From a virus, in IMG/VR virus record IMGVR_UViG_3300035696_000001: DNA of 64,000 nucleotides, one strand, 5' to 3'. The translations under genes and the position numbers were made by a program. Shown in pieces: positions 22,445 through 36,317 of this stretch; position 1 is the first letter of the stretch, and every line of letters starts with the position of its first letter. The notes under the pieces are model-generated. The model was not told the DNA's origin. It did no database searches and saw nothing but the letters and a program-made list of their open reading frames with translations.

Positions 22445-22479
22445 CCCCCTCTTAGCAAACAGTTTTGATTTGGTTGTCG

Positions 22480-22700
22480 TGCAGCGGTGTTTGGCTGACG
22501 GTTACTTCTTACCTAGAAAATGTCCTTGCCCGCAAGGGCAGGACATGGGGAAACCCTCTCCGTTGCCTCTTGTTCCCTGCCGACAGTTTTCCAGCGCGGC
22601 GGTTTTTGGTTGCGGTTACTTCTGCCTGTAAAGCAGACGAGCGGGGTCCGAATCCCCGGCGACCCGCGAGGGTCGAGGCTTGGGCCTAGTCAAAATACCG
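22480..22700 (+). ncRNA. Candidate Y RNA (YrlA-like) with tRNA-like module, upstream of rsr
   Basis: 300-bp ORF-poor gap before the Ro60 gene. Hairpin with GCAA tetraloop (22521..22546). GGGG-TCCGAAT-CCCC T-arm-like hairpin at 22642..22658 containing GGTCCGA (22645..22651), which is identical to the conserved Ro-binding 5' strand of Y RNAs. CUAGUC 3'-strand-like element at 22686. Boundaries and strand not determined. Confidence 0.35.
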
Positions 22701-22749
22701 AGGCCTATTGTTCCCCGCGCCTAAATTTCTAGCTCAAAAGAGGTGAACC

Positions 22750-24174
22750 ATGGCATCACTCAACGCTGCAACCCGTACCGCAAAGACCCCGCTCCGCACC
22801 GCCGAGGGCGGCAGGGCGGTCGGCATCGGCAAGGTCGCGCAGCTTCAGCGCCTGCTGAACGCCTGCCTCCTGTGGGAGGACAACTTCTACTCGGACGGCA
22901 AGAGCGTCGCCGACCTCATGCGCGAGCTTGTGCGCGAAGTCCCAGCCGAGAAGGTCGCGGAGCTTGCGATCAAGGCCCGCGAGGAGCAGAAGCTCCGCCA
23001 TGCCCCGCTGCTCATCGTCTACGAGATGACGCTCGCCTCGAAGGCTCACCGCGAGCTTGTCGGGGAGACGCTCACCCGCGTGATCCAGCGCCCGGACGAG
23101 ATCACCGAGTTCGTCGCCATCTACTACAAGCTCGGCGGCGGGAAGCGCCCGCTCTCGAAGCAGGTCAAGAAGGGCCTTGCCGCTGCCTTCAACAAGTTCA
23201 ACGAGTATGCGCTCGCAAAGTACAACCGCGACAAGGACGTCAAGCTCGCGGACGTGCTGGCGCTCGTCCACGCCAAGCCGAAGGACAGGGAGCAGGGCCT
23301 CCTCTTCGCGAAGCTTGCGAACAAGGACCGCCTGCCGAAGAAGACCAAGTTCGCGCAGTTCCCGGTGGCCGACACCTACCGCTCGCTCGCGAAGAACTTC
23401 AAGGGTCTGGAGACCCCGGACACTTGGGAGGTCGCGCTCTCTGGCGGCGCGGACAAGAAGGAGGCCTTCGAGCGCCTCATCCGCGAGGACAAGCTCGGCG
23501 GCCTCGCGATGATCCGCAACCTGCGCAACATGCAGGAGGCGGGCGTCTCCGACGCGGTCATCAAGCAGGGCCTTGCGCAGATGAACGCCGAGCGCGTGCT
23601 CCCGTTCCGCTTCATCGCGGCGGCGAAGTACGCCCCGAAGTTCGAGGCGCACCTTGAGGAGGCGATGTTCAAGTGCCTTGAGGGGCACCCGAAGCTGCCG
23701 GGCAAGACCGTGCTGCTCGTGGACGTTTCCGGCTCGATGGATCAGCATGTTTCCTCGAAGTCCGACCTGATGCGCGTGGACGCTGCCGTCGCCCTTGCGA
23801 TGCTCCTCCGCGAGGTCGGCGAGGACGTGGTCGTGTATTCGTTCTCGGAACGGGAAGTCCTCGTCCCGACCCGGCGCGGGTTCGCCCTCGCCGAGGCGAT
23901 CAAGGGGTCGCAGCCCCATTCGGGCACGTACCTCGGCCGCTCCGTGACCGCCGTTGCCCGCGCCGAGGGCGACGCCGACCGCGTCATCGCGATCTCGGAC
24001 GAGCAGGCGCACGACAACGTCTCGAACCCATTCCGCAAGACCGAGTCGAAGGCGTACATGATAAACGTGGCAAGCGAAGCTCACGGAGTCGGATACCGTA
24101 ATGGTTGGAATCACATCGATGGATGGTCTGAGGCTGTGGTAGACTACGTAGTTGCTGAAGAGGCAACAAAATAG
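22750..24174 (+). CDS. rsr: Ro60/Rsr ortholog (TROVE domain + vWA/MIDAS)
   Basis: N-terminal TROVE-like region (LLWEDNFYSDGKSVAD..HAPLLIVYEM). C-terminal vWA domain with the MIDAS motif VLLVDVSGSMD. The overlapping ORFs 22743..23657 and 22756..24114(-) are frame artefacts. Confidence 0.8.
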   Translation: MASLNAATRTAKTPLRTAEGGRAVGIGKVAQLQRLLNACLLWEDNFYSDGKSVADLMRELVREVPAEKVAELAIKAREEQKLRHAPLLIVYEMTLASKAHRELVGETLTRVIQRPDEITEFVAIYYKLGGGKRPLSKQVKKGLAAAFNKFNEYALAKYNRDKDVKLADVLALVHAKPKDREQGLLFAKLANKDRLPKKTKFAQFPVADTYRSLAKNFKGLETPDTWEVALSGGADKKEAFERLIREDKLGGLAMIRNLRNMQEAGVSDAVIKQGLAQMNAERVLPFRFIAAAKYAPKFEAHLEEAMFKCLEGHPKLPGKTVLLVDVSGSMDQHVSSKSDLMRVDAAVALAMLLREVGEDVVVYSFSEREVLVPTRRGFALAEAIKGSQPHSGTYLGRSVTAVARAEGDADRVIAISDEQAHDNVSNPFRKTESKAYMINVASEAHGVGYRNGWNHIDGWSEAVVDYVVAEEATK

Positions 24175-24239
24175 TTGATCTGTTTTATTCCGATAATCAA
24201 CCAGAAAAGCTAATTCAGCCCTCGTATTAGAGGGTTGAA

Positions 24240-24785
24240 ATGCTTGGTCAAAGGTTTGGACGTTACACGGTTATTGAGAAAGCGGGCTACCACACATCGC
24301 CCTGTGGGCAGAAGCAAGCGATGTGGAAATGTCGTTGTGACTGCGGTACGGTGAAGACTGTCATTGGTGCAGCGTTACGAAGGGGCAATACTAAGAGTTG
24401 CGGATGCTTAAAGCTTGAGTTACTTCCTTTGTATCGTTTCAAACTCCCAGAAGGGCACTCCATACGGAACAAAGTGCTAGGAACCTATAAACATAGCGCT
24501 AAAGTACGAAAACTGATATGGCAACTTACGGATGTACAATTTGACATTTTGACGCAACAAAATTGCCATTATTGCGGAACGGCTCCGACAACTGTGCGTC
24601 AGATCAAAAACCTGAACGGACCGTTCGTATACAACGGTATCGACCGGAAGAATAATTCAAAGGGGCACACCCCGGACAATGTGGTATCATGCTGCGAAGT
24701 TTGTAATAAGATGAAGCTGACGATGTCAATCGAAAAATTTTTGGCACATGTACAGCGAATCGTTGCTCATATTCCTAGCATCTAA
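24240..24785 (+). CDS. HNH homing endonuclease
   Basis: N-terminal FGRYTV..W.CRCDCG zinc-ribbon module. HYCGT...NGIDRKNNSKGHTPDNVVSCCEVCNKMK HNH motif. Paralogous to the N-terminus of 58246..59388. Lower-GC island. Confidence 0.65.
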   Translation: MLGQRFGRYTVIEKAGYHTSPCGQKQAMWKCRCDCGTVKTVIGAALRRGNTKSCGCLKLELLPLYRFKLPEGHSIRNKVLGTYKHSAKVRKLIWQLTDVQFDILTQQNCHYCGTAPTTVRQIKNLNGPFVYNGIDRKNNSKGHTPDNVVSCCEVCNKMKLTMSIEKFLAHVQRIVAHIPSI

Positions 24786-25268
24786 GCTGTGAGGAGACCG
24801 AAGTGGTGCATAAGCGCGTGTTCAAGGCGGTAAACCGGAAGATCGACGGCAAGACCACCGTTTCCTACAAGGAAGGCGCTGACGGCACGGGGGTCACCTT
24901 GCCGTCCACCTGCGGGTTCTGCAAGGATCGCCACGGCAACGTGACGTTCGCGTGCCGCTCGCGCAGGGAGCGGAACCGCCACGCGAACGAATGCTCGGAT
25001 CGCGGGTAAAATGGCACAGAATTGCCAACGCTGCGGAAGCTACAAGCATACGACGGACGACCACGACCGCCGCAAGTTCGGAAGGCGGCGGGTTCTGCGG
25101 ACGAAGCCGGTTAAAAAAATGAAGAAGTGAAGATTCAGCGGGCGGTGCCGGACGACCTGCACCCGTCAAAGTGCTCTCTAATCGTCCATGTTCCCCCGCT
25201 TGTCAGCATCAACGAGGCGTTCCCCTCGGCGCTTTTCTGGGGTACAATTGCGGATTGAGGATACCCTG

Positions 25269-25634
25269 ATGAAGCTGTCGGCATTATTAGCCTTGATTTT
25301 TCTAGCCTTGCCATTGTTGATGGCATCCCCAAAGCCCAAAAAGGGGCAGACACAGCCTGACCCGAAACGCATCGCCGAGATTCAGCAAGCTCTCGCCGAC
25401 CATGGCTACCCTTCAGGCAAAAATTGGAACGAGACAAGGGAAATCTGCCGCAAAATCGCCGACGACCATGGCTGGCAGAACATGTGGGCACCCGACGCCC
25501 GCGTGCTTTTCCTGTTGGGCCTAGCACCGAACCTCAGCTTGAACGCCGACGACCTGAAGCCCGGCAATACCGACGCGTACGAGCGCAAGTGGGTCGAAGA
25601 CCACGGCGGCGAGGCGGCGCGAGCAACACAATGA
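25269..25634 (+). CDS. Small secreted protein (signal peptide)
   Basis: Starts MKLSALLALIFLALPLLMASPKPKKG, consistent with a signal peptide. Confidence 0.4.
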   Translation: MKLSALLALIFLALPLLMASPKPKKGQTQPDPKRIAEIQQALADHGYPSGKNWNETREICRKIADDHGWQNMWAPDARVLFLLGLAPNLSLNADDLKPGNTDAYERKWVEDHGGEAARATQ

Positions 25635-26113
25635 GCGGTAAGAGAGTCGGATTCACGGGAACCCACAAGGGCGTAAGCGCCTTTCAGCTTGCGGCTTTGA
25701 CGAAGAAGCTGGAATCCTTGAAGGAAGAAGGCTTCAACGAATTCCATCACGGTCAGTGCGTCGGGGCCGACGAGCAAGCCGCGAGGATCGCGAAGAGTCT
25801 CGGCTACCGCGTGGTGGCGCATCCCGGTCTGGCGAAAGACCCGGCGAACCTGCTGTACCGCTCCGAGTGGGGCGGGAACGACGAGGTGCGGGAACCCAAG
25901 CCGTTCATCGAGCGCGACCGCGACATCGTGGACAAGACCGAGACGATGCTTGCGACGCCGCTGACTTACGAAGAGACGACCCGATCCGGGACTTGGAGCA
26001 CGGTGCGCTACGCGAGAAAGCAGGGGCGCGTGGAGGGGCAGACTCTTTACGTGATTCGTCCGCCGTGGATGCCGCCGAGGTGGACAGATGGGATGCTCAA
26101 GGAGCCACAATGA
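25631..26113 (+). CDS. Hypothetical protein (Rossmann-like GFTGTHKG...HHGQCVGADE)
   Basis: ATGA-coupled to the upstream gene. Function unknown. Confidence 0.4.
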   Translation: MSGKRVGFTGTHKGVSAFQLAALTKKLESLKEEGFNEFHHGQCVGADEQAARIAKSLGYRVVAHPGLAKDPANLLYRSEWGGNDEVREPKPFIERDRDIVDKTETMLATPLTYEETTRSGTWSTVRYARKQGRVEGQTLYVIRPPWMPPRWTDGMLKEPQ

Positions 26114-26451
26114 GCGCAGACAACGGAATTTACATTGCGGTATTTGCTGACGGTAAGCGGCGTGTGGCGCACTGCCAAGCAATCGACAACTGCTACTATC
26201 CTGACCAAGAAAACGCCGAGTCGATAGTTGACTACTTCGGCGACGCGCCGGAGTTTTCAACGGAGCAGGAAGCATGCGGGCATGCCATGCGCATGCTGCA
26301 CGAAATCATGGACAGCGATTTTCCCGTACTGGAATACGGAATTTCTGAACTGAGGTTCGCAAAAGCGTTCGCTGACTACCTTCACGAATGCGAACAAAAC
26401 TACACGGACAAGGCGATGAAGGTCGTTGATTCGAAAAAGCGTACGAGTTGA
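26110..26451 (+). CDS. Hypothetical protein
   Basis: ATGA-coupled, 113 aa. Confidence 0.4.
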   Translation: MSADNGIYIAVFADGKRRVAHCQAIDNCYYPDQENAESIVDYFGDAPEFSTEQEACGHAMRMLHEIMDSDFPVLEYGISELRFAKAFADYLHECEQNYTDKAMKVVDSKKRTS

Positions 26452-26458
26452 GGGGCTG

Positions 26459-26809
26459 ATGGGGCACATCAAGCAAAACCGATTCAGGGGCAGCATGGCT
26501 GAGTACGGCGCGATAACGGCGCTGTTCGAGGACATCCCGGCGTCCGAGGTCAGCGTCACATCCGGGGCGCAACTTGCGTTCGACGCAGCCCGCGCCTTCA
26601 TCAAAGAGATGATCGCCAACCAATGCAGACTCGCCGGGTGCAAGCTGACAGGGCATCCCCATGGCGAGGGCGATGAGCATACGAACAAGTGCTGGTTCGG
26701 CATGAGGCAAGCTTACTACGCGGACAGGAACGCCAAAAAGCTGCTTCGAGAAGCCGAAGACCGGATGAAAATGCACGTCAAAGGCTTCGGAGGATTTGAG
26801 TTTGAATGA
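26459..26809 (+). CDS. Hypothetical protein
   Basis: GAGGGG SD before the ATG at 26459. Confidence 0.35.
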   Translation: MGHIKQNRFRGSMAEYGAITALFEDIPASEVSVTSGAQLAFDAARAFIKEMIANQCRLAGCKLTGHPHGEGDEHTNKCWFGMRQAYYADRNAKKLLREAEDRMKMHVKGFGGFEFE

Positions 26810-27216
26810 GCGAAGCATACTGGAAGGCGCGGTACCACGCAGCGGAGAGGGCGTTCCAGAAGCTCAAGGTTATCACCAAGCAAGTCCCTGCGGGCACGTG
26901 GACTGCCGACTACCGTAAACTGGCGGAGGCGGTGCATACCCTTGGGCGCGACGTATTCTGGGTGCCCCTTTGCGGCGGCTGCGGCAAATGCGAGGAGTGC
27001 CTGAAGGTCGAGCCTTCAAGTCGGGGGGAGGAAAAACCTATGGGTGACACAGTCAAGGCTACGAGCGGCATGGTCAAGTTTTGCGAGAAACACCAGCGGG
27101 AGTACGAGGTGATAAATTACGGAGACCGCTTCGGGATGGAATGCCCGGCATGCCGGGAGGAAGCCGAGTCCGAGCACACTGTGGCGTTCCTTGACCGGGT
27201 GGAATTTCCCAAGTAA
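26806..27216 (+). CDS. Hypothetical Cys-rich (zinc-binding?) protein
   Basis: CGGCGKCEEC and CPACREE pairs. Confidence 0.4.
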   Translation: MSEAYWKARYHAAERAFQKLKVITKQVPAGTWTADYRKLAEAVHTLGRDVFWVPLCGGCGKCEECLKVEPSSRGEEKPMGDTVKATSGMVKFCEKHQREYEVINYGDRFGMECPACREEAESEHTVAFLDRVEFPK

Positions 27217-27261
27217 CCAAAACCTCCGTCCTGGCTGTACACTATGGGCAGGAGGGTCACC

Positions 27262-27606
27262 ATGTATACAGGGAAGATCGTCAATGAGGGCGAGATCAAG
27301 GACGTTGACCGTATCGTCACGAATGGCGAGGGCAAGGTGCTTGACCTTGAAGCCAGCCTTAGGGTCGTGAACCATTCCCCAACAGGGTTCTGCTGGGGCT
27401 ACAACGGCTCCGGCCCGGCGCAGCTTGCGCTCGCCATCCTGCTCGACCACCTCAACGGCGACCGCGCTTACGCGCTGTCGATCTACCAAGACTTCAAGGA
27501 CAAGGTCATCGCCCGGCTTCCGATAGACGAGGACTTCGTGCTGACCGACCAGCAGGTCGAGTCCGCCATCACCGAGATCAACATTGAAAGAATGCGGAGA
27601 GCGTGA
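27262..27606 (+). CDS. Hypothetical protein (SPTGFCWGYNGSGPAQLALAIL motif)
   Basis: AGGAGGG SD before the second ATG. Confidence 0.4.
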   Translation: MYTGKIVNEGEIKDVDRIVTNGEGKVLDLEASLRVVNHSPTGFCWGYNGSGPAQLALAILLDHLNGDRAYALSIYQDFKDKVIARLPIDEDFVLTDQQVESAITEINIERMRRA

Positions 27607-28049
27607 GCGAATGGTTAAACCTAAGAAGAGACCGAAGCCCTGCTCCATGAAGATAGTTAGAATTCCTTTGTACATCGAACGTGCTGTTCAGCGGTTGGCA
27701 GATGACGAAGACCTATGCCGTGCTTTGCAAAGCGCAATGCCTTACTGCGTGCATGTTGTTGGAACGAGTTTCCATAACGCTACAGTGGAAGCAGGACACC
27801 GAGAAGACGAAGAATTACGGAAGCAAGACCTTTGCAAGCGGAAAGGTGGCGTAGCATGAAAATGGGAACCGAAGCCCTGCAATCCACACGCGAAGCCGAG
27901 TCGCTCATCGGCTCGCCGGTCACCCAGATGTTCATGGACAGTTTTCCCGAGCATCGTTTGGCGTGGCTCAGAGAAGCGCGGAAAATTCTCCGTGCGAACG
28001 GCGTCAAGCCAGAGAATCTCGACGGGCCGTGGCACACGGAGTAGTCGCC

Positions 28050-28355
28050 ATGAGAAAACTAACTTTTGCGCAATATCAGGTTCTTCAAGCATTGCTGGAC
28101 GGTAAGCCGTTCTGCGAGTTTTTAACCTTCGATAACCGCCGTTTGGTTTTTCGCACGTTGGGTAACTCTGTTCCTGCGCGTTTGAACTATGTGCTGGACG
28201 GCAAGCGGGTAGCGTACCGAACCTTTCGATCCCTGTTCAAGGCGAACATGATCAAACCGGGCAAGTACAAAGGTGACAACGATCCCGGAGACGGCATTAC
28301 GCAATTTTACCTCACTGAATTAGGGTATAAAACGTTGGTTGGAAACAAATGCTGA
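28050..28355 (+). CDS. Hypothetical protein
   Basis: Start at the internal Met, with GGAG SD. Confidence 0.4.
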   Translation: MRKLTFAQYQVLQALLDGKPFCEFLTFDNRRLVFRTLGNSVPARLNYVLDGKRVAYRTFRSLFKANMIKPGKYKGDNDPGDGITQFYLTELGYKTLVGNKC

Positions 28356-28554
28356 GTGGGCAACCTAATGCCAAAAGTCACGCGCAAGCAAAAAGCCGTT
28401 GAACTTCGTTGCCGCTTAGAGAATGGCCCGGCATTTGGGTTTCCCGGTCAAGAATTCACGCCAGAAATAGCGGCGCGGGATTTTCGCATCTGGTGCAATT
28501 CGTGGATTTTGCCTGTGGTTGACGAACTTGTTCCAGAATTGAGAAAGAAGAAGA

Positions 28555-29088
28555 ATGTCTGAATGTATCAGAGTACTGCCCCTGCGCTATTGGGACGACC
28601 CGGCGCTGTCCAAGGTCTGCGACAAGGTCGGCGACGGCGAGTTCGGGCCACAGCTTGAGGAGTTTGCCCGCCAGCTTGCGGCCACGATGGACGCCAACAA
28701 CGGCATCGGGCTGGCAGCCCCGCAAGTCGGCGTGCTCAGGCGAATGTTCGTGATGCGGTTTCCCGACCACCGGAATGCCGCGCCCATAACCGTGTGCAAC
28801 CCGGTGATGGTTTTCAGCGGGGCGAATTTGGCTGAGAGCGAGGGCTGCCTGAGCGTGCCGGGAGTGCATGTCCCGGTGTTTCGGGCATCGCATGCCAACA
28901 TGACGTACCGCACGCCGTCTGGCGAACACGTGGAATTGCTGCTAGACTTGTGGGACGCTCGCGTGGCGGCCCATGAGAGAGATCATTTAGACGGGATTAT
29001 GATGTTCGACCGGCTCAGGGTGTCGAGGCAGGTCAGCCGGGCGGCGTTGCGCGAGTGGGAGAAGGAAAAGAGGAAGCGGGGACTTTGA
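28555..29088 (+). CDS. def: Peptide deformylase
   Basis: All three PDF motifs present: GIGLAAPQVG, EGCLSVPG and HERDHLDG. Confidence 0.85.
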   Translation: MSECIRVLPLRYWDDPALSKVCDKVGDGEFGPQLEEFARQLAATMDANNGIGLAAPQVGVLRRMFVMRFPDHRNAAPITVCNPVMVFSGANLAESEGCLSVPGVHVPVFRASHANMTYRTPSGEHVELLLDLWDARVAAHERDHLDGIMMFDRLRVSRQVSRAALREWEKEKRKRGL

Positions 29089-29354
29089 GCGACCGTGCAC
29101 AACATTACAAGTTGGCAGGATGTCGCTCTCTCTCCTTGATCTGGTTACCGGGTCTTGTAGTCTCATTGACCGCCTTGGCGAACAAAAAGACTCAGTACCC
29201 ACGATCATCCTCTATCTGGTACGCCTGCATCTGCGGCGCTGAGGCTATTATATGCTCAACTTTGCATTTGTATATAGTTACAGGCATTTCCACTGCTTTC
29301 TTTTTGGTCAACATAGCCTTCGCCGTTTGGCGACCTATTAAGAAGGAGATTTAA

Positions 29355-29585: not shown

Positions 29586-29816
29586 ATGACCCCCTGCGGG
29601 TGCCCGCCAGAGACGTTCTGGACGCTGCTCCATGACGCGGCGCATTGGGAATTCGAGCTTTTCCTGATGCTGGTCTTTGACGGCATCATCGGCGCGATTG
29701 CGTGGCCGTTCATAAAGAAGCACTGGCAGCACCACGTTGAGAGGGACACGGCGGAGGGGCGATGAAGAAGGGGGAAAGTCGAGTCATTATCAAGAGCGAC
29801 GGTCTGGAGGAAAGCA

Positions 29817-30902
29817 GTGGGCGAGTTTACCGAGCAACGGTTTGATTATTCTGCGGGACGCGAAGATGCCCCTGAATTGACTATTATGGTGGGGATCAGC
29901 GGCTCGGGGAAATCTACGCTCGTTAAGCAATGGATAAACCGTGGGCGTGGCGACATCGTGCGCCTGAACCGGGACAGCTTGCGTGCCATGCTGTATATAG
30001 ATGTGCCTTGGAGTAATAATTTGGAGAACTTAACGCGTGACGTGCAAAAGCACGCTGCGATTTTAGCGCTCCAACGGGGTAAGGATGTGATTATTGATGA
30101 TTGTAATCATCTTCGTCAAGTTCGTCAAAAATGGGAAGAGTTTGCCAAGGAAAACCGGGCGAAGTTTCGTATCGTAACAATGACTACAGACCTCGACGTT
30201 TGCATCAAGCGGGATTCCAAGCGCGAGGGTAAGGAAAAAGTTGGCGAGGGTGTGATTCGCCGCCAGTACAAGGATTTGCATGCTTTGGACAGGACTTCTA
30301 GGAAGGAAACGGCTCCGGCGAAGCTGACCCGCCCGTACTTCGAGCGCACCGAGTACCTCAAGAACGGTGGGTGGGTCACCCGCCTGCCCAACGCCAAGTG
30401 GGTGCTGGTGGACGTTGACGGCACGCTGGCGAACCATGTCGGCGTGCGCGGCCCCTACGACGAGTCCCGAGTGCTTGAGGATTCGGTGTGGGAGCCTGTC
30501 GCCGAGATGGTGCGCTCGCTGTACCCTAGCCACAACGTCTGCGTGGTGTCCGGCCGCCACGACTTTTGCGGCGACGACACGTGCGACTGGCTGGAGATGA
30601 ACGCCGTCCCGTTCGACCACATACTGATGCGGTACAGCGGGGACAACCGCTCTGACATTGTCATCAAGCAGGAGCTTCTCGACGAGCTTTCGGCGGTGAT
30701 CGGCAAGGAGAGCATAGCGTTCGTGATCGACGACCGCCCTCGGGTCTGCGAGATGTGGAGGAGCAACGGCCTCGCGGTGAAGCAGGTTTTCGCCGGGGAG
30801 GTCTTGGAAAACCCGACTCTTAAACATGCGGACGGATGCGCCTATGAGAAGCAAACGGGCTACCGGCGCTGCCCGGACTGCGGGGCTTTAGAGTATTTTT
30901 AG
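29817..30902 (+). CDS. pnkp: Polynucleotide kinase-phosphatase (T4 Pnk/PseT-like)
   Basis: N-terminal P-loop kinase GISGSGKST. C-terminal HAD 3'-phosphatase LVDVDGTLA..VVSGR. Same domain order as T4 Pnk. GTG start with GGAGG SD. Confidence 0.8.
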   Translation: MGEFTEQRFDYSAGREDAPELTIMVGISGSGKSTLVKQWINRGRGDIVRLNRDSLRAMLYIDVPWSNNLENLTRDVQKHAAILALQRGKDVIIDDCNHLRQVRQKWEEFAKENRAKFRIVTMTTDLDVCIKRDSKREGKEKVGEGVIRRQYKDLHALDRTSRKETAPAKLTRPYFERTEYLKNGGWVTRLPNAKWVLVDVDGTLANHVGVRGPYDESRVLEDSVWEPVAEMVRSLYPSHNVCVVSGRHDFCGDDTCDWLEMNAVPFDHILMRYSGDNRSDIVIKQELLDELSAVIGKESIAFVIDDRPRVCEMWRSNGLAVKQVFAGEVLENPTLKHADGCAYEKQTGYRRCPDCGALEYF

Positions 30903-30946
30903 TCTGGAAAATCCGGCTTCCGCAGTATTAAACAGCAGAGGCTTGG

Positions 30947-31738
30947 ATGTTCGTTTACCTGATCGTCAACGACGTGAATCTGAAGATTTACGTCGGCAAG
31001 ACCATCAGCAAAAATCTACAACTTTACTTTCAAAAGAAGCTTTGGGACGCAGAGCACCCCGAGTCCTCCCGAGGAAATTCCCATCTTTTTGCTTCTGTTC
31101 GTAAATACGGACGCGAACACTTCCACATCTTTCCGCTGTTCGAGGGTCAAACTAACGAAGAAATCTGCGTCCATGAGAAGCTACTCATAAAGGTTCTCGC
31201 TGTGCAGAATTCTGAGATTGGTTACAACATCTGCCGTGGTGGTGAAGGGCGCATGGGGTCGCACACCGCCGAGACCATCGTCAAAATTAGTAAGTCTAAT
31301 AAAATTACAAAGTCTGACCAGAAATATCGTGCTAAAGCCAGTGAAACCATGAAACAAACATGGAGAATCAATCCGCAAAATCGGATTAGGCTTAGTGAAT
31401 CTACTAAAAATAAATGGTCTACTCCTGAGTTTCGTGCAAAAGCCAGCGGAGGTATAAAGCAACGGTATATAACCGATCCGAATTATCGCTCCCAAATTTC
31501 CGAGGCGGGTAAAAAGCAGTGGATTGAAGCCGATCCTATAGAGCAAGTTAAAAGGGTAGAACGGTTAGTCAAAGCTACGAAAAGAAGGTGGGTAAAGTAC
31601 AGGGAAGAAACCAAAGAACTGACCGCACAAATTGTCAATTTACATCAAAAGGGATGGACTCAAAGGGCCATAGCGCATGAACTGAGCATAGGGAAAAGTA
31701 CAGTTCATAGCCGCTTAAAACAGACAAGAGATTACTAG
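30947..31738 (+). CDS. GIY-YIG homing endonuclease with NUMOD3 repeats and C-terminal HTH
   Basis: VYLIVNDVNLKIYVGKT (GIY) and YNICRGG (YIG). Repeated SHTAETIVKISKSN, ASETMKQTW and LSESTKNKWS NUMOD3 motifs. Markedly AT-richer than its flanks. Confidence 0.75.
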   Translation: MFVYLIVNDVNLKIYVGKTISKNLQLYFQKKLWDAEHPESSRGNSHLFASVRKYGREHFHIFPLFEGQTNEEICVHEKLLIKVLAVQNSEIGYNICRGGEGRMGSHTAETIVKISKSNKITKSDQKYRAKASETMKQTWRINPQNRIRLSESTKNKWSTPEFRAKASGGIKQRYITDPNYRSQISEAGKKQWIEADPIEQVKRVERLVKATKRRWVKYREETKELTAQIVNLHQKGWTQRAIAHELSIGKSTVHSRLKQTRDY

Positions 31739-31779
31739 ACGGCTAGCTTTCCGCCTCTTTTTGTAGGATAATCACTGAC

Positions 31780-32271
31780 ATGGCCTCGAAGAAAAATGAC
31801 ATCGAAAAGGCGCTGGGGAAGATCGGTGAAAACGCTCGTGCGGTCGGCAAGGCGGCGGAGAGCCTGAGCAAAGAGTGGCGTCAGACCCTCGACGACGTCA
31901 ACGAGGCGGACAAGGCATTCGGCGACGAGGTGTTTCAGAATAAGGAAAATTTTGTGGATTTCCTGAGAAGCAAAATCAGAAACGGCAAAACTGAAATCCG
32001 CGTGATGCAGGTTGGGCCGGATGGTCTCCTTACCGACGTCTCGGACAAGGTCAATGCAAAAGACCTCAAACCCGAGGACATCAGCGGCATCCAGACCGAA
32101 AACGGCAGGACAATACCAATCGGTCAGAGCAGGGAAGCCGCCTATCGGCTCTTGCAAGAACTGCTGACCTCAGCATCGGCAGCAAGCCAATTCGGCACAT
32201 CGGAATCGATCAGAAGAATGGAGCTTGTTTTGGCTGAGAGCGACAAAATTTTGGAGCATTGGAAGAAGTGA
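31780..32271 (+). CDS. Hypothetical protein
   Basis: 163-aa ORF, followed by a GC-rich stem-loop. Confidence 0.45.
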   Translation: MASKKNDIEKALGKIGENARAVGKAAESLSKEWRQTLDDVNEADKAFGDEVFQNKENFVDFLRSKIRNGKTEIRVMQVGPDGLLTDVSDKVNAKDLKPEDISGIQTENGRTIPIGQSREAAYRLLQELLTSASAASQFGTSESIRRMELVLAESDKILEHWKK

Positions 32272-32315
32272 CCCCCCTTCGGTATTAGACCCCGAAGAGG
32301 GGTCTGGTACCGAAA

Positions 32316-33434
32316 ATGAAGCTTTTACTCAAGAATATCCTGCCCTTCGACCTGTTCAGGCGCATGCTTGACGAGGGATACGTCCGCTCGCAGGTGCATC
32401 CCCTTTATCCTGAGTTGGTTGTCTTCAACTACACCGAGGCGGCCCAATTTGACCGTGCGTGGAATGAGGCGACCAACGTGTGCCGCGGCCTGGTCGTGCG
32501 GCTCGCAAACGGCGTGCTGGACGACGACGCCGAGGTGTTGGCGCGGCCTTTCAACAAGTTCCATAACCTGAACACTGCCTACGTGCCGGAGACTATGGAG
32601 GCGAGCCTGCCGGACGAGGCACCGCTTGTGACCACGAAGCTTGACGGCTCGATGGGCATCGTGTATTCGTACGACGGTCAATGGTGGGTCGCGACTCGCG
32701 GGTCGTTCGACTCGGATCAGGCACGCCGGGCGACAGCGTGGTACCGCCAGCACATAGCCGTGGGGTTTCCCCAGAACTGGCCCGACGGCGTTACGCCCGT
32801 GTGCGAGATCATCTACCCGGAGAACCGGATCGTCGTGGACTACGACTTCGAAGGATTGGTGTTGCTCTCGATGATCGAGAACGCAACCGGGCGCGAGCTT
32901 GCCCGCGACGAGGTGGAGGCATGGGCGAGAGTCAACGTGCTCCAGATCGTTGATAAGTTTGACAAGACGCTAGCGGAGTGCGCGGCTGAGAACGCGCTGA
33001 ACGAGGAGGGGTACGTTTTGACTTACTCGAACGGCGTGAAGGTGAAGGTGAAGTTCGCGGAGTACGTGCGGCTCCACCGCATCCTTACTGGGTTGAACCC
33101 GAAGGCGATCTGGGAGATGCTTGCCCAGAATTTCGGGGCGGGGGTGGATGCGATCCTTGCAGACCCGAAGATGCCCGTCACCTTCATCGAATGGTTCAAG
33201 GGGTGGGTGGATCAGCTTCGCAGGAAGTACGCGGAGATCGAGCGGGAGGCGCAGGCTGTGTTCGCCGCGCGTCCGCAGTCGCCCGTCCGCAAGGATCAGG
33301 CGCTCTACTTCATGCAGACGCCGCAGCACAAGTCTGTCCTGTTCGCAATGCTCGACGGCAAGGACTACGCCGGGATCATTTGGGACCGCATTGCGCCGAA
33401 GGGCAACCAGACGTTCAAGAAGGACGGAGAATAA
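32316..33434 (+). CDS. rnl: RNA ligase (T4 Rnl-like, ATP-dependent)
   Basis: Motif I TTKLDGSMG (KxDG), motif IV EEGYVL and motif V VKVKVKF. Partner of Pnkp. Confidence 0.7.
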   Translation: MKLLLKNILPFDLFRRMLDEGYVRSQVHPLYPELVVFNYTEAAQFDRAWNEATNVCRGLVVRLANGVLDDDAEVLARPFNKFHNLNTAYVPETMEASLPDEAPLVTTKLDGSMGIVYSYDGQWWVATRGSFDSDQARRATAWYRQHIAVGFPQNWPDGVTPVCEIIYPENRIVVDYDFEGLVLLSMIENATGRELARDEVEAWARVNVLQIVDKFDKTLAECAAENALNEEGYVLTYSNGVKVKVKFAEYVRLHRILTGLNPKAIWEMLAQNFGAGVDAILADPKMPVTFIEWFKGWVDQLRRKYAEIEREAQAVFAARPQSPVRKDQALYFMQTPQHKSVLFAMLDGKDYAGIIWDRIAPKGNQTFKKDGE

Positions 33435-33580
33435 AAGTTCCCGTGCGGTAACATTTCGTTGGTTTTGCCCCAAAACCGACAGAATGCTCCCGTGCGGGAA
33501 CATTGTATTCCAAAGGAACGTTATACTCCAAGTAACTGATCCTGCTGGGGTTATTCCCTTTTCCCTTTCTGGCCTTTTCA

Positions 33581-33600
33581 GGGGACTCCGCTGTATACTA
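33581..33600 (+). promoter_or_regulatory. Repeated promoter-like motif copy 1 (GGGGACTCCGCTGTATACTA)
   Basis: Extended -10-like TGTATACT. 30 nt shared with copy 2. Lies 19 nt before the ATG at 33619. Confidence 0.35.
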
Positions 33601-33618
33601 TAGGCGGAGAAACGATAA

Positions 33619-34995
33619 ATGAAGAAATCTACGGTCTTTTGGATGGTCGTGGCCGCCCTCGCTGTCCGCATCGCTTTCATGGTGGCGTTTGATACGTATC
33701 ACTTCGTTGGCGTAGACGACATGACCAAGGTCGGTGAAACGACGAACATCGCGGCGTCCATCGCCAGGGGGCACGGATTCAGTTCACCGTTCGGCGGCGA
33801 ATACACGGGGCCGACAGCTTGGATTGCCCCCGTCTATCCGTACTTCATTGCCCTTGTGTTCCACTTCTTTGGGATATTCTCGAACGCCTCAGCGGCAGTC
33901 GTTTTCACGATTCAAGCACTGTTTTCCGCCTTGACTGTCATTCCGATTTTGGGCATCGCCAATAAAACTGTCGGGAAGCGTTCCGGTTTGGTAGCCGCTT
34001 GGACATGGACTCTTTTCCCTTGGTTTAGCAAATGGGCATTAACTTGGGAGTGGGAAGTCAGCTTGAGTGCGTTGCTCCTCTCCTTAATCGTTTGGTACAT
34101 GCTCAGTCTGGAAAAGGCAGCCGCCGTTAAGTCGTGGGCTGGGTTTGGAATCCTAGAGGGATTCGCTCAGCTAGTCAATCCGGCACTGAGCGCCGTTCTC
34201 CCGGTTGCATTTGCGTGGCAGGTCTACAAACTGCGATTCAACCGCAAAGAGTGACTCAAGCCGGTCGTGGCGCTGCTGGCGTGCGTCGCCACAATAACAC
34301 CTTGGGTAGTGCGAAATCGCGTTGTGTTCGGACAATGGGTGTTCCTGCGCGGCAACTTCGGTTACGAGTTCGCCCTTGGCAACTACCATAACAGCTTCGG
34401 GCGCGGGTGGGGAGGGTTTCACCCTTCGGGTAACTTGCGCGAATACGACGACTACAAGCGCATGGGCGAGGCGGCTTACATCGAATCCCATAAAGAAAAA
34501 GGCCTCCAGTTTGTGCGCCAGTACCCGGTTGAATTCGTTACGCTAACAGCGAAACGGGTTTCCTACTTTTGGGATGGGAGCGCCGTCGGTTACCGGGCAC
34601 CCGTCGCCAAGCATTGGATTCCGTCCAGCTTCGGCGTGATCTCATTATTGCTGCTTCCAGCCCTGCTGATTACGTACAGGAATCGGGTACCGGCATGGCA
34701 AGCGTTCTTCGGTGTGTTTCTGCTGTACCCGGCACCCTATTATCTTACGTTCAGTCAATTGCGTTACCGGCACGCCGTTGAGCCTCTCATGGTAATTCTA
34801 ATCTCTTACGCCGTGGTCAACGCCATAACTGCGATCTATCAAAGTTTTTTAGGTTTGCGTCTTCCTAGCCTTTTCGGGGGACTCCGCTGTATACTACCGA
34901 CGAAAGCAGCGACGTCTGCGGCACCCGCTGCCCGAAGTCGGAGAAATCCGAAGGGCAAACGTCCTGCAAATTTTATGCTCAAGGACTCGTTATGA
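33619..34995 (+). pseudogene. GT-C fold membrane glycosyltransferase (ArnT/PMT-like) interrupted by a single in-frame TGA at 34252
   Basis: ORFs 33619..34254 and 34267..34995 are in the same frame, separated only by TGA 34252..34254 (NRKE*LKPVVALLA). Together ~455 aa with multiple TM helices and a first-loop VGVDD..GE acidic motif, typical of ArnT/PMT_2. May be a readthrough/recoded gene, a pseudogene or a sequencing error. Confidence 0.45.
34876..34896 (+). promoter_or_regulatory. Repeated promoter-like motif copy 2 (GGGGGACTCCGCTGTATACTA)
   Basis: Same 30-nt element as 33571..33600. Lies ~95 nt upstream of the CCA-enzyme gene start. Confidence 0.3.
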
Positions 34996-36317
34996 GTTGG
35001 AAGCGAGAAAATTTCATCTCGTCATTCCAGATTGCCGCGCACGCCAAGGTGATGTACAAGCTTGAAAACAAGGGCTTCGAAGCTTTCCTTGTCGGCGGCT
35101 GCGTGCGCGACCGGCTTCTCCAACGGCAATCCAGGGACTTCGATGTGACGACCGACGCCACGCCCGACCAGATTCGTGCCATCTTCCCTCACACCATCCC
35201 GGTCGGCGCGAAGTTCGGCGTCGTGGTCGTGCTGATGGACGGCGTGCAGGTCGAAGTTGCAACGTTTCGAAGCGACGGGACTTACACTGACGGTCGGCGA
35301 CCGGACGAAGTCACGTACAGCAGGAACGCAAAGGATGACGTCGTCCGCCGCGATTTCACCATGAACGGCTTGCTCATGGACTCCCTCGGCGACATTATCG
35401 ACCACGTTGACGGTCAGGAAGACATCAAGCACGGAATCATCCGCGCCATCGGCGACCCAAACGTGCGCTTCGCGGAGGATGCGCTCCGCATGATGCGGGC
35501 TGTCCGCTTCGCGGCGCAGCTTGGCTTCAAGATCGAGGAAAAGACCCTTGAAGCGATCAAGAGCAACGCCCGGCTCCTGTCCGCCATCAGCCGGGAGCGC
35601 ATCGCGATGGAGCTTTTCAAGATGCTTTCCGCGCCGTTTCCGCTCAAGGGGATCGTGCCTTTCATTGCGACGGGGCTGTTCCGCTATGCCTTGCCGGAGC
35701 AGTTCCCCGACCATGTGAACATGGCGCGAACCATACAGCGGTTCGGCACGTTCGAGGCGAAGGACGCCATGCTCGGCATGGCTATGCTATTCGCCGACAT
35801 CAACGACTTCTACTGTGGGGGGCTTGCGGATTACCTCAAGCTGTCCAACGAGCAAAAAGACGAGCTTATTTGCATGAAGAGCCACGTTCATAATTTCCAG
35901 CACCACTTAACCGGGGCGTACCGCATGACTGAGGCGCGGATCAAACGCAACCTGCGGTATCCGGGCGTCAGGCTGGCGCTGGAGATCATGACGCAGGACG
36001 AGGTCATGGGCAAGACCGGCTTCGGCATCGAGGCGCTGATGGCGTTCGTGCTCAAGGTCAAGGCGTACAAACCCGAGGAGATCAAGCCGAAGCCGCTGGT
36101 GACGGGCAAGGACTTGATTGACGCTGGCATCCCACCGGGGCCGATCTATACGAGCATCCTGTTCGACATTGAGAGCCACCAGCTTAACGGCGTGTTCACG
36201 ACGAAGGAGCAGGGCATGGAGTTCGTCCGCGAGCGCGTACGCCAAGGAGCGGGTCTGCATGGGCTTGAGTGGGTTTATACGGGCTTGTCCGCAACGGAAG
36301 CGCGGGAGCTAGAATGA
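34992..36317 (+). CDS. cca: tRNA nucleotidyltransferase (CCA-adding enzyme), class II
   Basis: Head-domain motifs LVGGCVRDRLL, RDFDVTTDA, VATFRSDG and DVVRRDFTMNGL (RRD). Confidence 0.8.
   Translation: MSWKRENFISSFQIAAHAKVMYKLENKGFEAFLVGGCVRDRLLQRQSRDFDVTTDATPDQIRAIFPHTIPVGAKFGVVVVLMDGVQVEVATFRSDGTYTDGRRPDEVTYSRNAKDDVVRRDFTMNGLLMDSLGDIIDHVDGQEDIKHGIIRAIGDPNVRFAEDALRMMRAVRFAAQLGFKIEEKTLEAIKSNARLLSAISRERIAMELFKMLSAPFPLKGIVPFIATGLFRYALPEQFPDHVNMARTIQRFGTFEAKDAMLGMAMLFADINDFYCGGLADYLKLSNEQKDELICMKSHVHNFQHHLTGAYRMTEARIKRNLRYPGVRLALEIMTQDEVMGKTGFGIEALMAFVLKVKAYKPEEIKPKPLVTGKDLIDAGIPPGPIYTSILFDIESHQLNGVFTTKEQGMEFVRERVRQGAGLHGLEWVYTGLSATEARELE

What the first reader, a model, noticed from the sequence alone, without database searches (positions are those of the whole stretch)
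22445..36317. Dispersed but comprehensive tRNA/RNA repair and surveillance toolkit (Ro60 + candidate Y RNA, Pnkp, Rnl, CCA-adding enzyme, His-phosphatase; Thg1-like at 62071)
Within 14 kb the plus-strand block encodes Rsr/Ro60 (22750), T4-type Pnkp (29817), RNA ligase (32316), a class II CCA-adding enzyme (34992) and a histidine phosphatase (36881). A Thg1-like 3'-5' polymerase lies at 62071..62979. Established functions: Pnkp and Rnl reseal anticodon-loop breaks made by PrrC/RloC-type nucleases; CCA enzyme rebuilds damaged 3' ends; Thg1-like proteins repair tRNA 5' ends; Ro60-Y RNA tethers PNPase for structured-RNA decay. Together they cover every known class of tRNA end or loop lesion. This suggests a counter-defence system against host tRNA-targeting immunity that is more complete than the classical T4 Pnk/Rnl pair.
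Basis: partly seen in the sequence, partly recalled or inferred. Interest (0 to 1): 0.85.

Follow-up and report, generated by a model that had tools for sequence, protein, structure and literature searches.

The report
Phage RNA-repair genes with Ro60/Y RNAs
An uncultivated soil jumbo phage encodes a Ro60 protein with two Y RNAs, plus enzymes that heal, reseal and re-tip broken tRNAs; every gene call is correct, but extended RNA-repair sets like this are already described for jumbo phages, so this is a new example and not a new system.

Summary
Observation confirmed. All six protein calls hold at the stated coordinates: Ro60 (TROVE+vWA), a bifunctional T4-type Pnkp, an Rnl1-type RNA ligase, a class II CCA-adding enzyme, a branch-1 histidine phosphatase and a bacterial-type Thg1-like protein (TLP). 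Their catalytic motifs are intact.

The "candidate Y RNA" is real. It is two tandem Y RNAs upstream of Ro60. One is YrlB-like (22475-22585). The other is YrlA-like with a tRNA-like domain (22594-22720). Both are supported by covariation within the clade and across distant phage Ro60 loci.

The order Ro60 - Pnkp - Rnl1 - CCA - unknown gene - His-phosphatase, with the TLP downstream, is syntenic in related soil phage contigs of up to 463 kb. The nearest cultured relative is Tunturiibacter phage Tunturi_5.

This is not an operon, and it does not cover "every" lesion class. The His-phosphatase has no demonstrated RNA role. CCA and TLP could equally mature phage tRNAs. The counter-defence idea for this same gene repertoire (tRNAs, Rnl1/2, PNK-HAD, TROVE, CCA, Thg1) was published for jumbo phages in 2021. 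Phage Ro60 with two upstream Y RNAs was shown biochemically in 2025.

Verdict: new member of a known kind, modest interest.

The parts
22361..22389 (+). Promoter-like site (TTGACA, 17 nt, TAGTAT) about 85 nt upstream of the first Y RNA
   Evidence: Consensus scan, 10 of 12 matches. This is a consensus match only. The sequence just downstream (22391-22411) is shared with L002.
22475..22585 (+). Y RNA unit 1 (YrlB-like). From the ends inward: terminal stem, bulged C, GG:CC, internal loop (5' UGUUU / 3' UCUUGUU), second stem, then an apical domain of three predicted hairpins (two of them maintained in relatives) after GGUUACUUC
   Evidence: MFE -48.9 kcal/mol, z = -4.5. Conserved with compensatory changes in L002, L004, L104 and L105. 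Top hit in the window, both strands, for a covariance model built only from Y RNAs of distant phage Ro60 loci: 16 bits, E about 0.07.
22594..22720 (+). Y RNA unit 2 (YrlA-like) with a tRNA-like domain. It has the same Ro-binding-type stem module as unit 1, then a V hairpin 22621-22637, a T arm 22642-22658 (CGGGG UCCGAAU CCCCG), an acceptor-like hairpin 22660-22675 and a miniature D arm 22676-22687 (loop UUGG)
   Evidence: The fold reproduces the comparative structure. It aligns with YrlA-type units of L008, Gurke (L001) and L017, with 19 of 26 pairs showing compensatory change. The terminal stem covaries within the clade: GCGCGG/CCGCGC, GUGCGG/CCGCAC, GCGUGG/CCACGC.
22750..24174 (+). Ro60 / Rsr orthologue (TROVE HEAT-repeat ring plus vWA domain)
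   Evidence: Pfam TROVE, VWA_2, vWA_Ro60. Full-length match to Thermus phage phiLo Ro60, 9KOP/9L5Y, 1.3e-29. 44-49% identical to Ro60 of Brevundimonas and Caulobacter giant phages. 81-87% identical in IMG/VR relatives.
29817..30902 (+). Bifunctional polynucleotide 5'-kinase / 3'-phosphatase (T4 Pnkp type)
   Evidence: AAA_33 plus HAD_PNKP. Matches Pnkp1 4xrp 2.5e-26 and T4 Pnk 1ltq 3.9e-21. P-loop GISGSGKST and DVDGTL are present. Homologues occur in 2902 phage records.
31780..32271 (+). Conserved unknown 163-aa protein directly upstream of Rnl1 (g49)
   Evidence: No Pfam or PHROG hit. Homologues only in this phage clade. Sits before Rnl1 in L026 and L029. The AF2 model is mostly long helices with low confidence, pTM 0.30. 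Membership in the repair set is inferred from position only.
32316..33434 (+). ATP-dependent RNA ligase of the Rnl1 family
   Evidence: RNA_lig_T4_1. Matches T4 Rnl1 2c5u at 5.2e-19 with motif I TKLDGS, EGYV and KVKVK. Homologues occur in 1588 phage records.
34992..36317 (+). Class II tRNA nucleotidyltransferase (CCA-adding type, no HD domain)
   Evidence: PolyA_pol plus PolyA_pol_RNAbd. Matches 1miv at 2.5e-60 with motifs GGCVRD, DFD, RRDFTMN and EDALRMMRAVRF. Homologues occur in 468 phage records.
36314..36868 (+). Conserved unknown 184-aa protein (g54). Its start overlaps the CCA stop codon. Minimal alpha/beta-hydrolase fold without the canonical Ser-His pair
36881..37615 (+). Branch-1 histidine phosphatase (substrate unknown)
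   Evidence: His_Phos_1 7.6e-23. RHG and CHS motifs present. Only weak similarity to PhoE and fructose-2,6-bisphosphatase. The only phage-database homologue is Tunturi_5 gp303, 51% identical. Metagenome gene callers start it at 36905.
62071..62979 (+). Thg1-like protein (bacterial TLP type 3'-5' polymerase)
   Evidence: Thg1 1e-23. Matches B. thuringiensis TLP 4kgk at 5.4e-49, with RVDGRAFH and QSDEIS conserved and a roughly 38-aa insertion at residues 123-159. Present at the same relative place in L034 and L035. Homologues occur in 163 phage records.

Best explanation
The window comes from an uncultivated soil jumbo phage that is distantly related to the Acidobacteriota phage Tunturi_5. It carries two functionally separate RNA modules within a long + strand block of auxiliary genes.

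Module 1 is a Ro60 ribonucleoprotein. Two Y RNAs appear to be transcribed ahead of Ro60, probably from the promoter-like site at 22361-22389, and processed out of the transcript. Both offer the same bulged-stem binding site to the Ro60 ring. The second one adds a tRNA-like domain. By analogy with D. radiodurans and Thermus phage phiLo, the RNP would recruit host PNPase or other partners to structured or damaged RNA.

Module 2 is a tRNA end-healing and sealing set. Pnkp would convert the 2',3'-cyclic phosphate and 5'-OH ends left by anticodon nucleases into 3'-OH and 5'-phosphate. Rnl1 would reseal them. The CCA enzyme would rebuild nibbled 3' ends. The TLP would refill 5'-truncated acceptor stems.

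Together the two modules would keep the tRNA pool usable during infection, against host tRNA-targeting defences.

Shown here: the identity of the genes, intact catalytic motifs, the two Y RNAs and their structure, and conservation of the arrangement in the clade. Inferred: every activity, the substrates, any co-operation between the modules, and any role for the His phosphatase, g49 and g54.
For: - Domain and active-site evidence for all enzymes.
- Y RNA structure with covariation, both across distant loci (11 of 15 pairs; 19 of 26 pairs) and within the clade (90.8% of cells paired against 44-48% in slid controls; 6 pairs with double changes).
- Independent model hit at the expected place and strand.
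- Synteny of Pnkp - Rnl1 - CCA - g54 - His-phosphatase in lineages down to 50-62% protein identity. In L027 the block spans only 7.6 kb.
- TLP conserved downstream in relatives.
- A second Ro60 lineage (L005) has Rnl and Pnkp within 9 kb.
- Established biochemistry: T4 Pnkp/Rnl1 against PrrC, TLP 5'-end repair (PMC3061083), the Ro60-Y RNA-PNPase complex (PMC4201824, PMC12135203), and Rsr-YrlA encoded with the RtcB repair ligase in Salmonella (PMC7790460).
- No tRNA gene in the window, in 10 kb on either side, or in the syntenic loci of relatives. A purely local tRNA-maturation role is therefore not evident.
Against: - There is no experimental or expression evidence.
- The genes are not contiguous. 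The TLP is 24.5 kb from the rest, and 16 predicted ORFs (15 small unknowns and a peptide deformylase) lie between Ro60 and Pnkp.
- Collinear phage genomes keep gene order for all genes, so synteny in relatives is weak evidence of functional coupling.
- Nine of about ten independent phage Ro60 loci show no Pnkp or Rnl within 10 kb.
- In Tunturi_5 the CCA enzyme, RtcB and the His-phosphatase homologue lie inside a tRNA gene island, and that paper reads them as tRNA processing enzymes.
- The rest of this phage's genome (contigs of relatives reach 332-463 kb) could not be inspected for tRNA genes.
Confidence: 0.55

Rival explanations
1. Translation-support reading. The CCA enzyme and the TLP, perhaps with the peptide deformylase at 28555-29088, serve mainly to mature and maintain tRNAs encoded elsewhere in this very large phage genome. 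CCA addition would serve tRNA genes without encoded CCA, and G-1 or 5'-end completion would serve tRNA-His. On this reading they do not repair damage inflicted by the host.
For: In the nearest cultured relative, Tunturi_5 (SNF2 helicase 53%, His-phosphatase 51%, CCA 34% identical), CCA, RtcB and the His-phosphatase homologue are interspersed with 41 ARAGORN-called tRNA genes (43 are reported). The authors read them as tRNA processing enzymes. Several other phage Ro60 loci abut tRNA arrays (L008, L014, L001). A deformylase is conserved in the block.
Against: No tRNA gene in 84 kb (window plus flanks) or in the syntenic loci of four relatives. This reading does not explain Pnkp plus Rnl1, whose only established joint role is resealing broken RNA. 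The TLP is of the bacterial repair type (best match BtTLP), not a G-1-specific Thg1.
Confidence: 0.25
2. Unconnected modules. The genes are independent auxiliary genes that happen to lie in the same early/middle region of a jumbo phage. Ro60 with its Y RNAs would redirect host PNPase, for host RNA decay or interference with host RNA processing. Pnkp/Rnl1 would be the ordinary T4-type pair. The His phosphatase, g49 and g54 would have nothing to do with RNA.
For: Ro60 is separated from Pnkp by 5.6 kb holding 16 predicted ORFs, 15 of them without an assigned function. Ro60 loci elsewhere rarely carry repair enzymes. The phiLo study proposes PNPase hijacking, not repair. The His phosphatase resembles metabolic phosphatases only weakly. 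g54 lacks a catalytic triad. The surrounding region is a mix of nucleotide-metabolism, Fe-S and helicase genes.
Against: All five RNA families are individually uncommon in phages: 89, 163, 468, 1588 and 2902 of 50,697 records. Yet they co-occur and stay syntenic across the clade. Co-occurrence is, however, expected to rise with genome size. Cellular precedent links Rsr/Y RNA with an RNA ligase operon (PMC7790460).
Confidence: 0.15
3. Moonlighting or other substrates. Pnkp would act on DNA ends. The Rnl1 homologue would act as a tail-fibre attachment factor, as T4 gp63 does, or on non-tRNA RNAs.
For: T4 Rnl1 is also gp63, the tail-fibre attachment catalyst. Some database records annotate the homologues in this way. 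T4 Pnkp also dephosphorylates DNA 3' ends (established knowledge).
Against: All nucleotidyl-transferase motifs of the ligase are intact. It lies among RNA enzymes and not among structural genes.
Confidence: 0.05

Closest known systems
Jumbo-phage RNA-repair repertoire described by Iyer, Anantharaman, Krishnan, Burroughs and Aravind 2021 (PMC7824862, section 3.4.9), building on Burroughs and Aravind 2016
   Same: The same families are read in the same way: Rnl1 ligase, PNK-HAD kinase/phosphatase, ROT/TROVE protein with a tRNA-like RNA partner, CCA-adding enzyme and Thg1. They are interpreted as the counter to host attacks on tRNA.
   Different: This phage is not in that survey; it is an uncultivated soil clade with no nucleotide match in the phage database. 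It lacks RtcB, RlaP, 2H, KptA and PTH2 among the proteins scanned. It carries a His phosphatase and an alpha/beta-hydrolase-fold protein in the block, and that paper does not mention such proteins.
T4 Pnkp + Rnl1 anticodon-loop repair (against PrrC)
   Same: Bifunctional kinase/phosphatase with P-loop and DxDGT. Rnl1-family ligase with KxDG, EGYV and KxK motifs.
   Different: About 20-25% identity level only (E 1e-19 to 1e-21). Here the genes are separated by a GIY-YIG endonuclease gene and a conserved unknown gene. The target nuclease is unknown.
Thermus phage phiLo Ro60 with Yrl1 and Yrl2 (PMC12135203)
   Same: Best solved-structure match of the window's Ro60. The locus layout is the same, with two Y-like RNAs directly upstream of the Ro60 gene on the same strand.
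   Different: The phiLo Yrls carry a CGAA motif. The window's RNAs have RGCGGUK at that place. One of them carries a tRNA-like domain, which the phiLo paper does not mention.
Bacterial YrlA/YrlB Y RNAs (Chen et al. 2014, PMC4201824) and the Salmonella rsr-yrlBA-rtcBA operon (PMC7790460)
   Same: Same order along the RNA: Ro-binding 5' strand, YUAY, V, T, acceptor-like hairpin, D, then the 3' strand. One tRNA-like and one simpler Y RNA per locus. Ro60 is encoded near an RNA ligase.
   Different: The GNCGAA(N)G motif is replaced by a variant. The D arm is reduced to a 4-bp stem with a UUGG loop, so ARAGORN calls no tRNA here, whereas it does in Gurke and L012. The ligase is ATP-dependent Rnl1 with Pnkp instead of RtcB/RtcA.
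Tunturiibacter phage Tunturi_5 (PP885688, PMC11924767)
   Same: Nearest cultured relative (SNF2 helicase 53%). It shares the CCA enzyme and the otherwise unique His phosphatase. Jumbo genome with similar GC content, from soil.
   Different: There the enzymes sit in a tRNA gene island together with an RtcB ligase. Whether Tunturi_5 has Ro60, Pnkp, Rnl1 or a TLP was not determined.
Bacterial Pnkp1-Rnl-Hen1 repair complex (4xrp)
   Same: Pnkp1 is the best solved-structure match of the window's Pnkp.
   Different: No Hen1 methyltransferase among the proteins scanned. The ligase matches only T4 Rnl1 in the PDB.

Membership tests
Ro60 / Y RNA ribonucleoprotein (Rsr with YrlA/YrlB) | Protein with a TROVE HEAT-repeat ring followed by a vWA domain | tested here: met
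   Pfam TROVE 9.7e-18, VWA_2, vWA_Ro60. Full-length match to phage Ro60 9KOP.
Ro60 / Y RNA ribonucleoprotein (Rsr with YrlA/YrlB) | Structured small RNA(s) encoded within a few kb of the Ro60 gene on the same strand, whose 5' and 3' ends pair into a bulged stem | tested here: met
   Two units at 22475-22585 and 22594-22720, 30-275 nt upstream of Ro60, + strand. The stem, bulged C and internal loop are supported by covariation.
Ro60 / Y RNA ribonucleoprotein (Rsr with YrlA/YrlB) | GNCGAA(N)G (CGAA) motif in the 5' strand of the Ro-binding region | tested here: not met
   The window has AGCGGUG (unit 1) and GGCGGUU (unit 2). Distant phage loci have GGCGAAG (L009) or GGCGUAG (L008, Gurke) at the aligned place, so this is a divergent form of the motif.
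Ro60 / Y RNA ribonucleoprotein (Rsr with YrlA/YrlB) | tRNA-like domain (T arm, acceptor-like hairpin, D arm) in at least one Y RNA | tested here: inconclusive
   The T arm (UCCGAAU loop) and the acceptor-like hairpin are clear and align with YrlA-type units. The D arm is only a 4-bp stem with a UUGG loop. ARAGORN and Rfam call nothing here.
Ro60 / Y RNA ribonucleoprotein (Rsr with YrlA/YrlB) | Physical binding of the RNA to Ro60 and tethering of PNPase | not testable with these tools
   Needs pull-down or EMSA.
T4-type Pnkp/Rnl1 tRNA repair pair | Bifunctional enzyme: N-terminal P-loop 5'-kinase and C-terminal DxDxT 3'-phosphatase | tested here: met
   AAA_33 at residues 21-153 and HAD_PNKP at 194-328. 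GISGSGKST and DVDGTL present.
T4-type Pnkp/Rnl1 tRNA repair pair | Rnl1-family ligase with the lysine nucleophile motif KxDG and motifs IV and V | tested here: met
   TKLDGS, EGYV and KVKVK align to T4 Rnl1 K99, E227 and K240/K242.
T4-type Pnkp/Rnl1 tRNA repair pair | Rescue of phage growth from an anticodon nuclease (PrrC-type) | not testable with these tools
   Genetic test needed. The host and its nucleases are unknown.
Class II CCA-adding enzyme | Head domain motifs A-E, including GGxVRD, DxD, RRD and the EDxxR nucleotide template | tested here: met
   GGCVRD, DFD, RRDFTMN and EDALRMMRAVRF; 2.5e-60 to 1miv. CCA specificity, as opposed to CC-only or A-only addition, was not tested.
Thg1-like protein (bacterial TLP) | Thg1 palm domain with conserved catalytic carboxylates, closer to bacterial TLPs than to eukaryotic Thg1 | tested here: met
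   5.4e-49 to BtTLP 4kgk against 4e-12 to 6e-6 for Thg1 enzymes. RVDGRAFH and QSDEIS conserved.
Bacterial Pnkp1-Rnl-Hen1 system | Hen1 2'-O-methyltransferase encoded with Pnkp1 and the ligase | tested here: not met
   No methyltransferase domain among the + strand proteins scanned between 20 and 64 kb or in the precomputed labels for 53-64 kb.
Single co-transcribed repair operon | Contiguous genes without intervening unrelated genes or mobile elements | tested here: not met
   A GIY-YIG gene lies between Pnkp and Rnl1. Two clade-variable ORFs lie between Rnl1 and CCA. The TLP is 24.5 kb away. Only CCA - g54 - His-phosphatase are tightly packed (a 4-nt overlap and a 12-nt gap).

The most novel reading that the evidence does not exclude
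The clade-conserved block would be an integrated phage "tRNA repairosome". The Ro60 ring with its tRNA-mimicking Y RNA would act as the platform that captures broken or misfolded tRNAs and hands them to phage Pnkp, Rnl1, CCA enzyme and TLP. This would be an ATP-ligase counterpart of the cellular Rsr-YrlA-RtcB system.

The tightly packed trio of CCA, an alpha/beta-hydrolase-fold protein and a branch-1 His phosphatase would be a new 3'-end healing unit. In it the His phosphatase would remove 2',3'-cyclic or 3'-phosphates before CCA rebuilding, replacing the HD phosphohydrolase domain that proteobacterial CCA enzymes carry.

The anticodon-like V hairpin of the Y RNA (5 bp, loop CUGUAAA) could additionally act as a decoy for anticodon nucleases.
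Probability: 0.1. Interest if true: 0.65.

Novelty: new member of a known kind. Interest (0 to 1): 0.3.

Why it matters
The window adds a well-resolved example from an almost unstudied group: very large soil phages related to the only cultured jumbo phage of Acidobacteriota. It shows that the Ro60/Y RNA module and the healing, sealing and terminus-rebuilding enzymes travel together and stay syntenic there.

It supplies two concrete, testable Y RNA sequences. Their Ro-binding motif is a variant and their tRNA-like domain is reduced, which is useful for building a proper covariance model of phage Y RNAs. No Rfam family matched these RNAs.

It also flags two conserved unknowns (g49, g54) and a His phosphatase as candidates for new repair accessories.

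It does not change how phage counter-defence against tRNases is understood.

Tried and rejected
- Rfam at gathering thresholds and at E up to 10 found no Y RNA or tRNA family in the window or around Ro60. ARAGORN found no tRNA.
- Megablast of 16 kb against 50,697 phage records found nothing.
- The covariance model from seven distant short Y RNAs found unit 1 as the top hit, but only at 16 bits. It mis-aligned unit 2 because of that unit's long apical insertion. I did not build a second model.
- A metagenome-wide pattern search for the T-arm region returned only three loci.
- I looked for tRNA arrays of this phage by walking 10 kb off both window ends and by searching viral contigs with the Tunturi_5 RtcB. 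The flanks held no tRNAs, and none of the window clade's contigs has a close RtcB relative. The tRNA content of the genome stays unknown.
- g49: no family hit, and the model is low-confidence (pTM 0.30), so no fold search was run.
- g54: the fold was identified but no function follows from it. The idea that it is an active serine hydrolase was rejected, because the nucleophile position varies and no catalytic His is conserved.
- ORFs that fill the gaps of the block in relatives L026, L027 and L029 were scanned for further repair domains such as RlaP, 2H or KptA. Nothing was found.
- Burroughs and Aravind 2016 is not held in the library, and the 2021 paper has no held supplement. An exact count of known phages with all five families could therefore not be made.

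Full report
**What the window is**

The sequence is about 57% G+C and has no nucleotide match among 50,697 phage records. Its proteins occur on soil and peat metagenome contigs (JGI 3300033405, 3300034091; ENA ERZ27256877, a 196-kb contig) and on IMG/VR viral contigs of 84-463 kb. The nearest cultured relative is Tunturiibacter phage Tunturi_5. That phage is a 309-kb myovirus of an Acidobacteriota host from tundra soil. Identities are 53% for the SNF2 helicase, 51% for the His phosphatase and 34% for the CCA enzyme. I called genes with a simple codon-usage script. Positions 1-20.4 kb are a minus-strand sugar-biosynthesis and glycosylation cluster. From 20.7 kb onward almost everything is on the + strand.

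**Checking the observation**

Comparison with solved structures sharpens the calls.
- Ro60 aligns over its full length with the Ro60 of Thermus phage phiLo.
- The kinase/phosphatase aligns with Pnkp1 and T4 Pnk and keeps the P-loop and the DxDGT phosphatase motif.
- The ligase matches only T4 Rnl1 and keeps the lysine motif KLDGS plus EGYV and KVKVK.
- The nucleotidyltransferase aligns at 2.5e-60 with the Bacillus CCA-adding enzyme and keeps motifs A, B and D.
- The 3'-5' polymerase is of the bacterial TLP type (5.4e-49 to BtTLP). It carries a 38-residue insertion.
- The His phosphatase keeps its RHG and second His motifs, but it resembles only generic members of its superfamily.

**The Y RNA**

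The 305 nt upstream of Ro60 hold two tandem structured RNAs on the + strand. Both share three features: a 5' segment RGCGGUK...GGUUACUUC, a 3' segment UUGUUCC, and a terminal stem with a bulged C next to two G:C pairs.

This region is more conserved than ordinary spacer in three related contigs. It also changes by compensatory substitutions, for example GCGCGG/CCGCGC, GUGCGG/CCGCAC and GCGUGG/CCACGC. On the five-sequence clade alignment, 90.8% of cells pair, against 44-48% when partners are slid. Six pairs show changes on both sides. That structure was derived from the window sequence, which favours it in this comparison.

The GGWUACUUC / UUGUUCC signature recurs beside Ro60 genes in nearly all 16 other phage loci fetched, with one to four copies per locus. 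Seven short units from six distant loci fold into the same architecture, with compensatory change at 11 of 15 pairs. A covariance model built from those seven alone ranks window unit 1 first among all positions on both strands (16 bits, rough E 0.07).

Unit 2 aligns with YrlA-type RNAs of other phages. It has a V hairpin, a T arm with loop UCCGAAU, an acceptor-like hairpin and a much reduced D arm. Nineteen of 26 pairs show compensatory change. In Brevundimonas phage Gurke and in L012 the corresponding element is called a tRNA by ARAGORN, and in Gurke it is also annotated as one.

This is the YrlA/YrlB arrangement that Chen et al. 2014 found next to Ro60 in 254 bacteria and 22 phages. The two-Yrl layout was shown to bind phage Ro60 in phiLo. 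The window's version differs in two ways: it lacks the canonical GNCGAA(N)G motif, and its D arm is miniature. A promoter-like site lies about 85 nt upstream, and there is no terminator before Ro60. This suggests co-transcription with Ro60 and processing of the RNAs out of the transcript, but that is inference.

**Anatomy of the protein block**

The gene order is:
- Y RNAs, then Ro60
- HNH endonuclease gene
- 14 small ORFs, then a peptide deformylase, then 2 more small ORFs
- Pnkp
- GIY-YIG endonuclease gene
- g49, then Rnl1
- two clade-variable ORFs
- CCA, g54, His phosphatase

The TLP follows 24.5 kb further on.

Local tblastn shows the same order in four related lineages down to 50-62% identity. 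In L027 the stretch from Pnkp to the His phosphatase is only 7.6 kb. The TLP is kept at the same relative place in two relatives. The homing-endonuclease genes and the ORFs between Rnl1 and CCA are absent from relatives, so they are insertions.

Two unknown genes are conserved within the block. g49 gave no usable model. g54 folds confidently (pLDDT 90) as a minimal alpha/beta hydrolase, but it lacks a conserved nucleophile and a catalytic His. Both are restricted to this phage clade. Only CCA, g54 and the His phosphatase are packed like an operon.

**How it most likely works**

Pnkp and Rnl1 have one established joint function, which is healing and sealing RNA breaks with 2',3'-cyclic phosphate and 5'-OH ends, as in T4 against PrrC. 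The CCA enzyme and a bacterial-type TLP restore tRNA 3' and 5' termini. Ro60 with its Y RNAs forms a separate RNP that, in the two systems studied, recruits PNPase. The best reading is therefore a set of RNA-maintenance functions that protect the tRNA pool during infection. I put this at about 0.55.

It remains inference from homology. Against a single integrated system:
- The dispersion of the genes.
- The general collinearity of related phage genomes, which makes synteny weak evidence of coupling.
- Among about ten independent phage Ro60 loci, only L005 also has Rnl and Pnkp nearby.

The main rival is tRNA maturation for phage-encoded tRNAs. In Tunturi_5 the CCA enzyme, an RtcB and the His-phosphatase homologue lie inside an island of 41 tRNA genes. 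No tRNA gene occurs in the window, its 10-kb flanks, or the relatives' syntenic loci. Most of the genome could not be inspected.

**Comparison with what is known, and novelty**

Each family is individually known in phages. The record counts out of 50,697 are:
- Pnkp: 2902
- Rnl1: 1588
- CCA: 468
- TLP: 163
- Ro60: 89

 If these were independent, a five-way co-occurrence would be vanishingly rare. They are not independent, because all are enriched in large genomes.

Iyer et al. 2021 describe this same repertoire in jumbo phages and give it the same counter-defence interpretation. Anantharaman et al. 2010 had already linked Thg1 with polynucleotide kinase and RNA ligase, and had raised a phage anti-defence role. 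"More complete than T4" is true of many jumbo phages. "Every class of lesion" is an overstatement, because several known repair components are absent.

The new elements are modest:
- a new, uncultivated phage clade
- a variant Y RNA pair
- two unknown proteins and a His phosphatase kept inside the block (that paper mentions no histidine phosphatase or phosphoglycerate-mutase-type enzyme)

**Verdict**

This is a new member of a known kind, with interest 0.3.

The most novel reading not excluded is an integrated Ro60-scaffolded repair machine in which the CCA / alpha-beta-hydrolase-fold / His-phosphatase trio forms a new 3'-end healing unit. I give it about 0.1 probability.

Noticed in passing
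window 1-20451, minus strand: A cluster of about 25 genes for sugar-nucleotide synthesis and glycosylation. It includes several NAD-dependent epimerases, a GHMP kinase, a SIS+HAD fusion (GmhA/GmhB-like), a transaldolase, UDP-glucose dehydrogenase, a GFO/IDH/MocA oxidoreductase, a TylF-type methyltransferase and glycosyltransferases. It is unusually large for a non-cyanophage. A 1794-aa protein lies beyond the left end.
   Followed up: partly
window 21896-22336 (-), 24240-24785 (+), 30947-31738 (+): Three low-GC homing-endonuclease-like genes (two HNH, one GIY-YIG with a C-terminal HTH). They flank the Y RNA/Ro60 locus and follow Pnkp. They are absent at these places in related contigs. In L002/L003 a third Y RNA sits downstream of Ro60, where the window has the HNH gene.
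   Followed up: partly
window 22621-22637; L002 equivalent; L001 (Gurke) 14811-14885: The V hairpin of Y RNA unit 2 has the geometry of an anticodon arm: a 5-bp stem and the 7-nt loop CUGUAAA, with U at loop position 2 and A at position 6. The loop is CUGUUAA in L002 and CUGCUAA in Gurke, where ARAGORN reads it as a tRNA-Ser anticodon. The feature is not universal among phage YrlA-type RNAs.
   Followed up: partly
window 52953-53282 and 54244-54666: Phage-encoded Fe-S cluster assembly proteins: an IscA-like Fe-S_biosyn protein and a NifU/IscU scaffold.
   Followed up: no
window 49945-50625, 50803-51429, 51684-52154: A dual-specificity phosphatase-fold protein, an HD-domain phosphohydrolase and a nucleoside 2-deoxyribosyltransferase-like protein lie in a row. 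The first two could in principle act on nucleic-acid ends, but nothing links them to the repair genes.
   Followed up: no
window 28555-29088: A peptide deformylase gene lies between Ro60 and Pnkp. It is conserved at that place in all related contigs.
   Followed up: partly
clusters of g54 and g49: The exact window proteins are recorded on a contig of 894,233 bp, and relatives on contigs of 447-463 kb. This phage clade may have genomes near 450 kb; the 894-kb record could be a concatemer or a mis-assembly. That contig could not be retrieved.
   Followed up: no
L031 (Tunturi_5) 22876-23571: Tunturi_5 gp303 is annotated as a DNA methyltransferase. It is in fact the 51%-identical homologue of the window's His_Phos_1 phosphatase, so the annotation is probably wrong.
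   Followed up: partly
L008 4701-5103: One small viral contig carries four tandem Y RNA units directly after Ro60, followed by a tRNA array. This is the highest copy number seen among the loci examined.
   Followed up: partly
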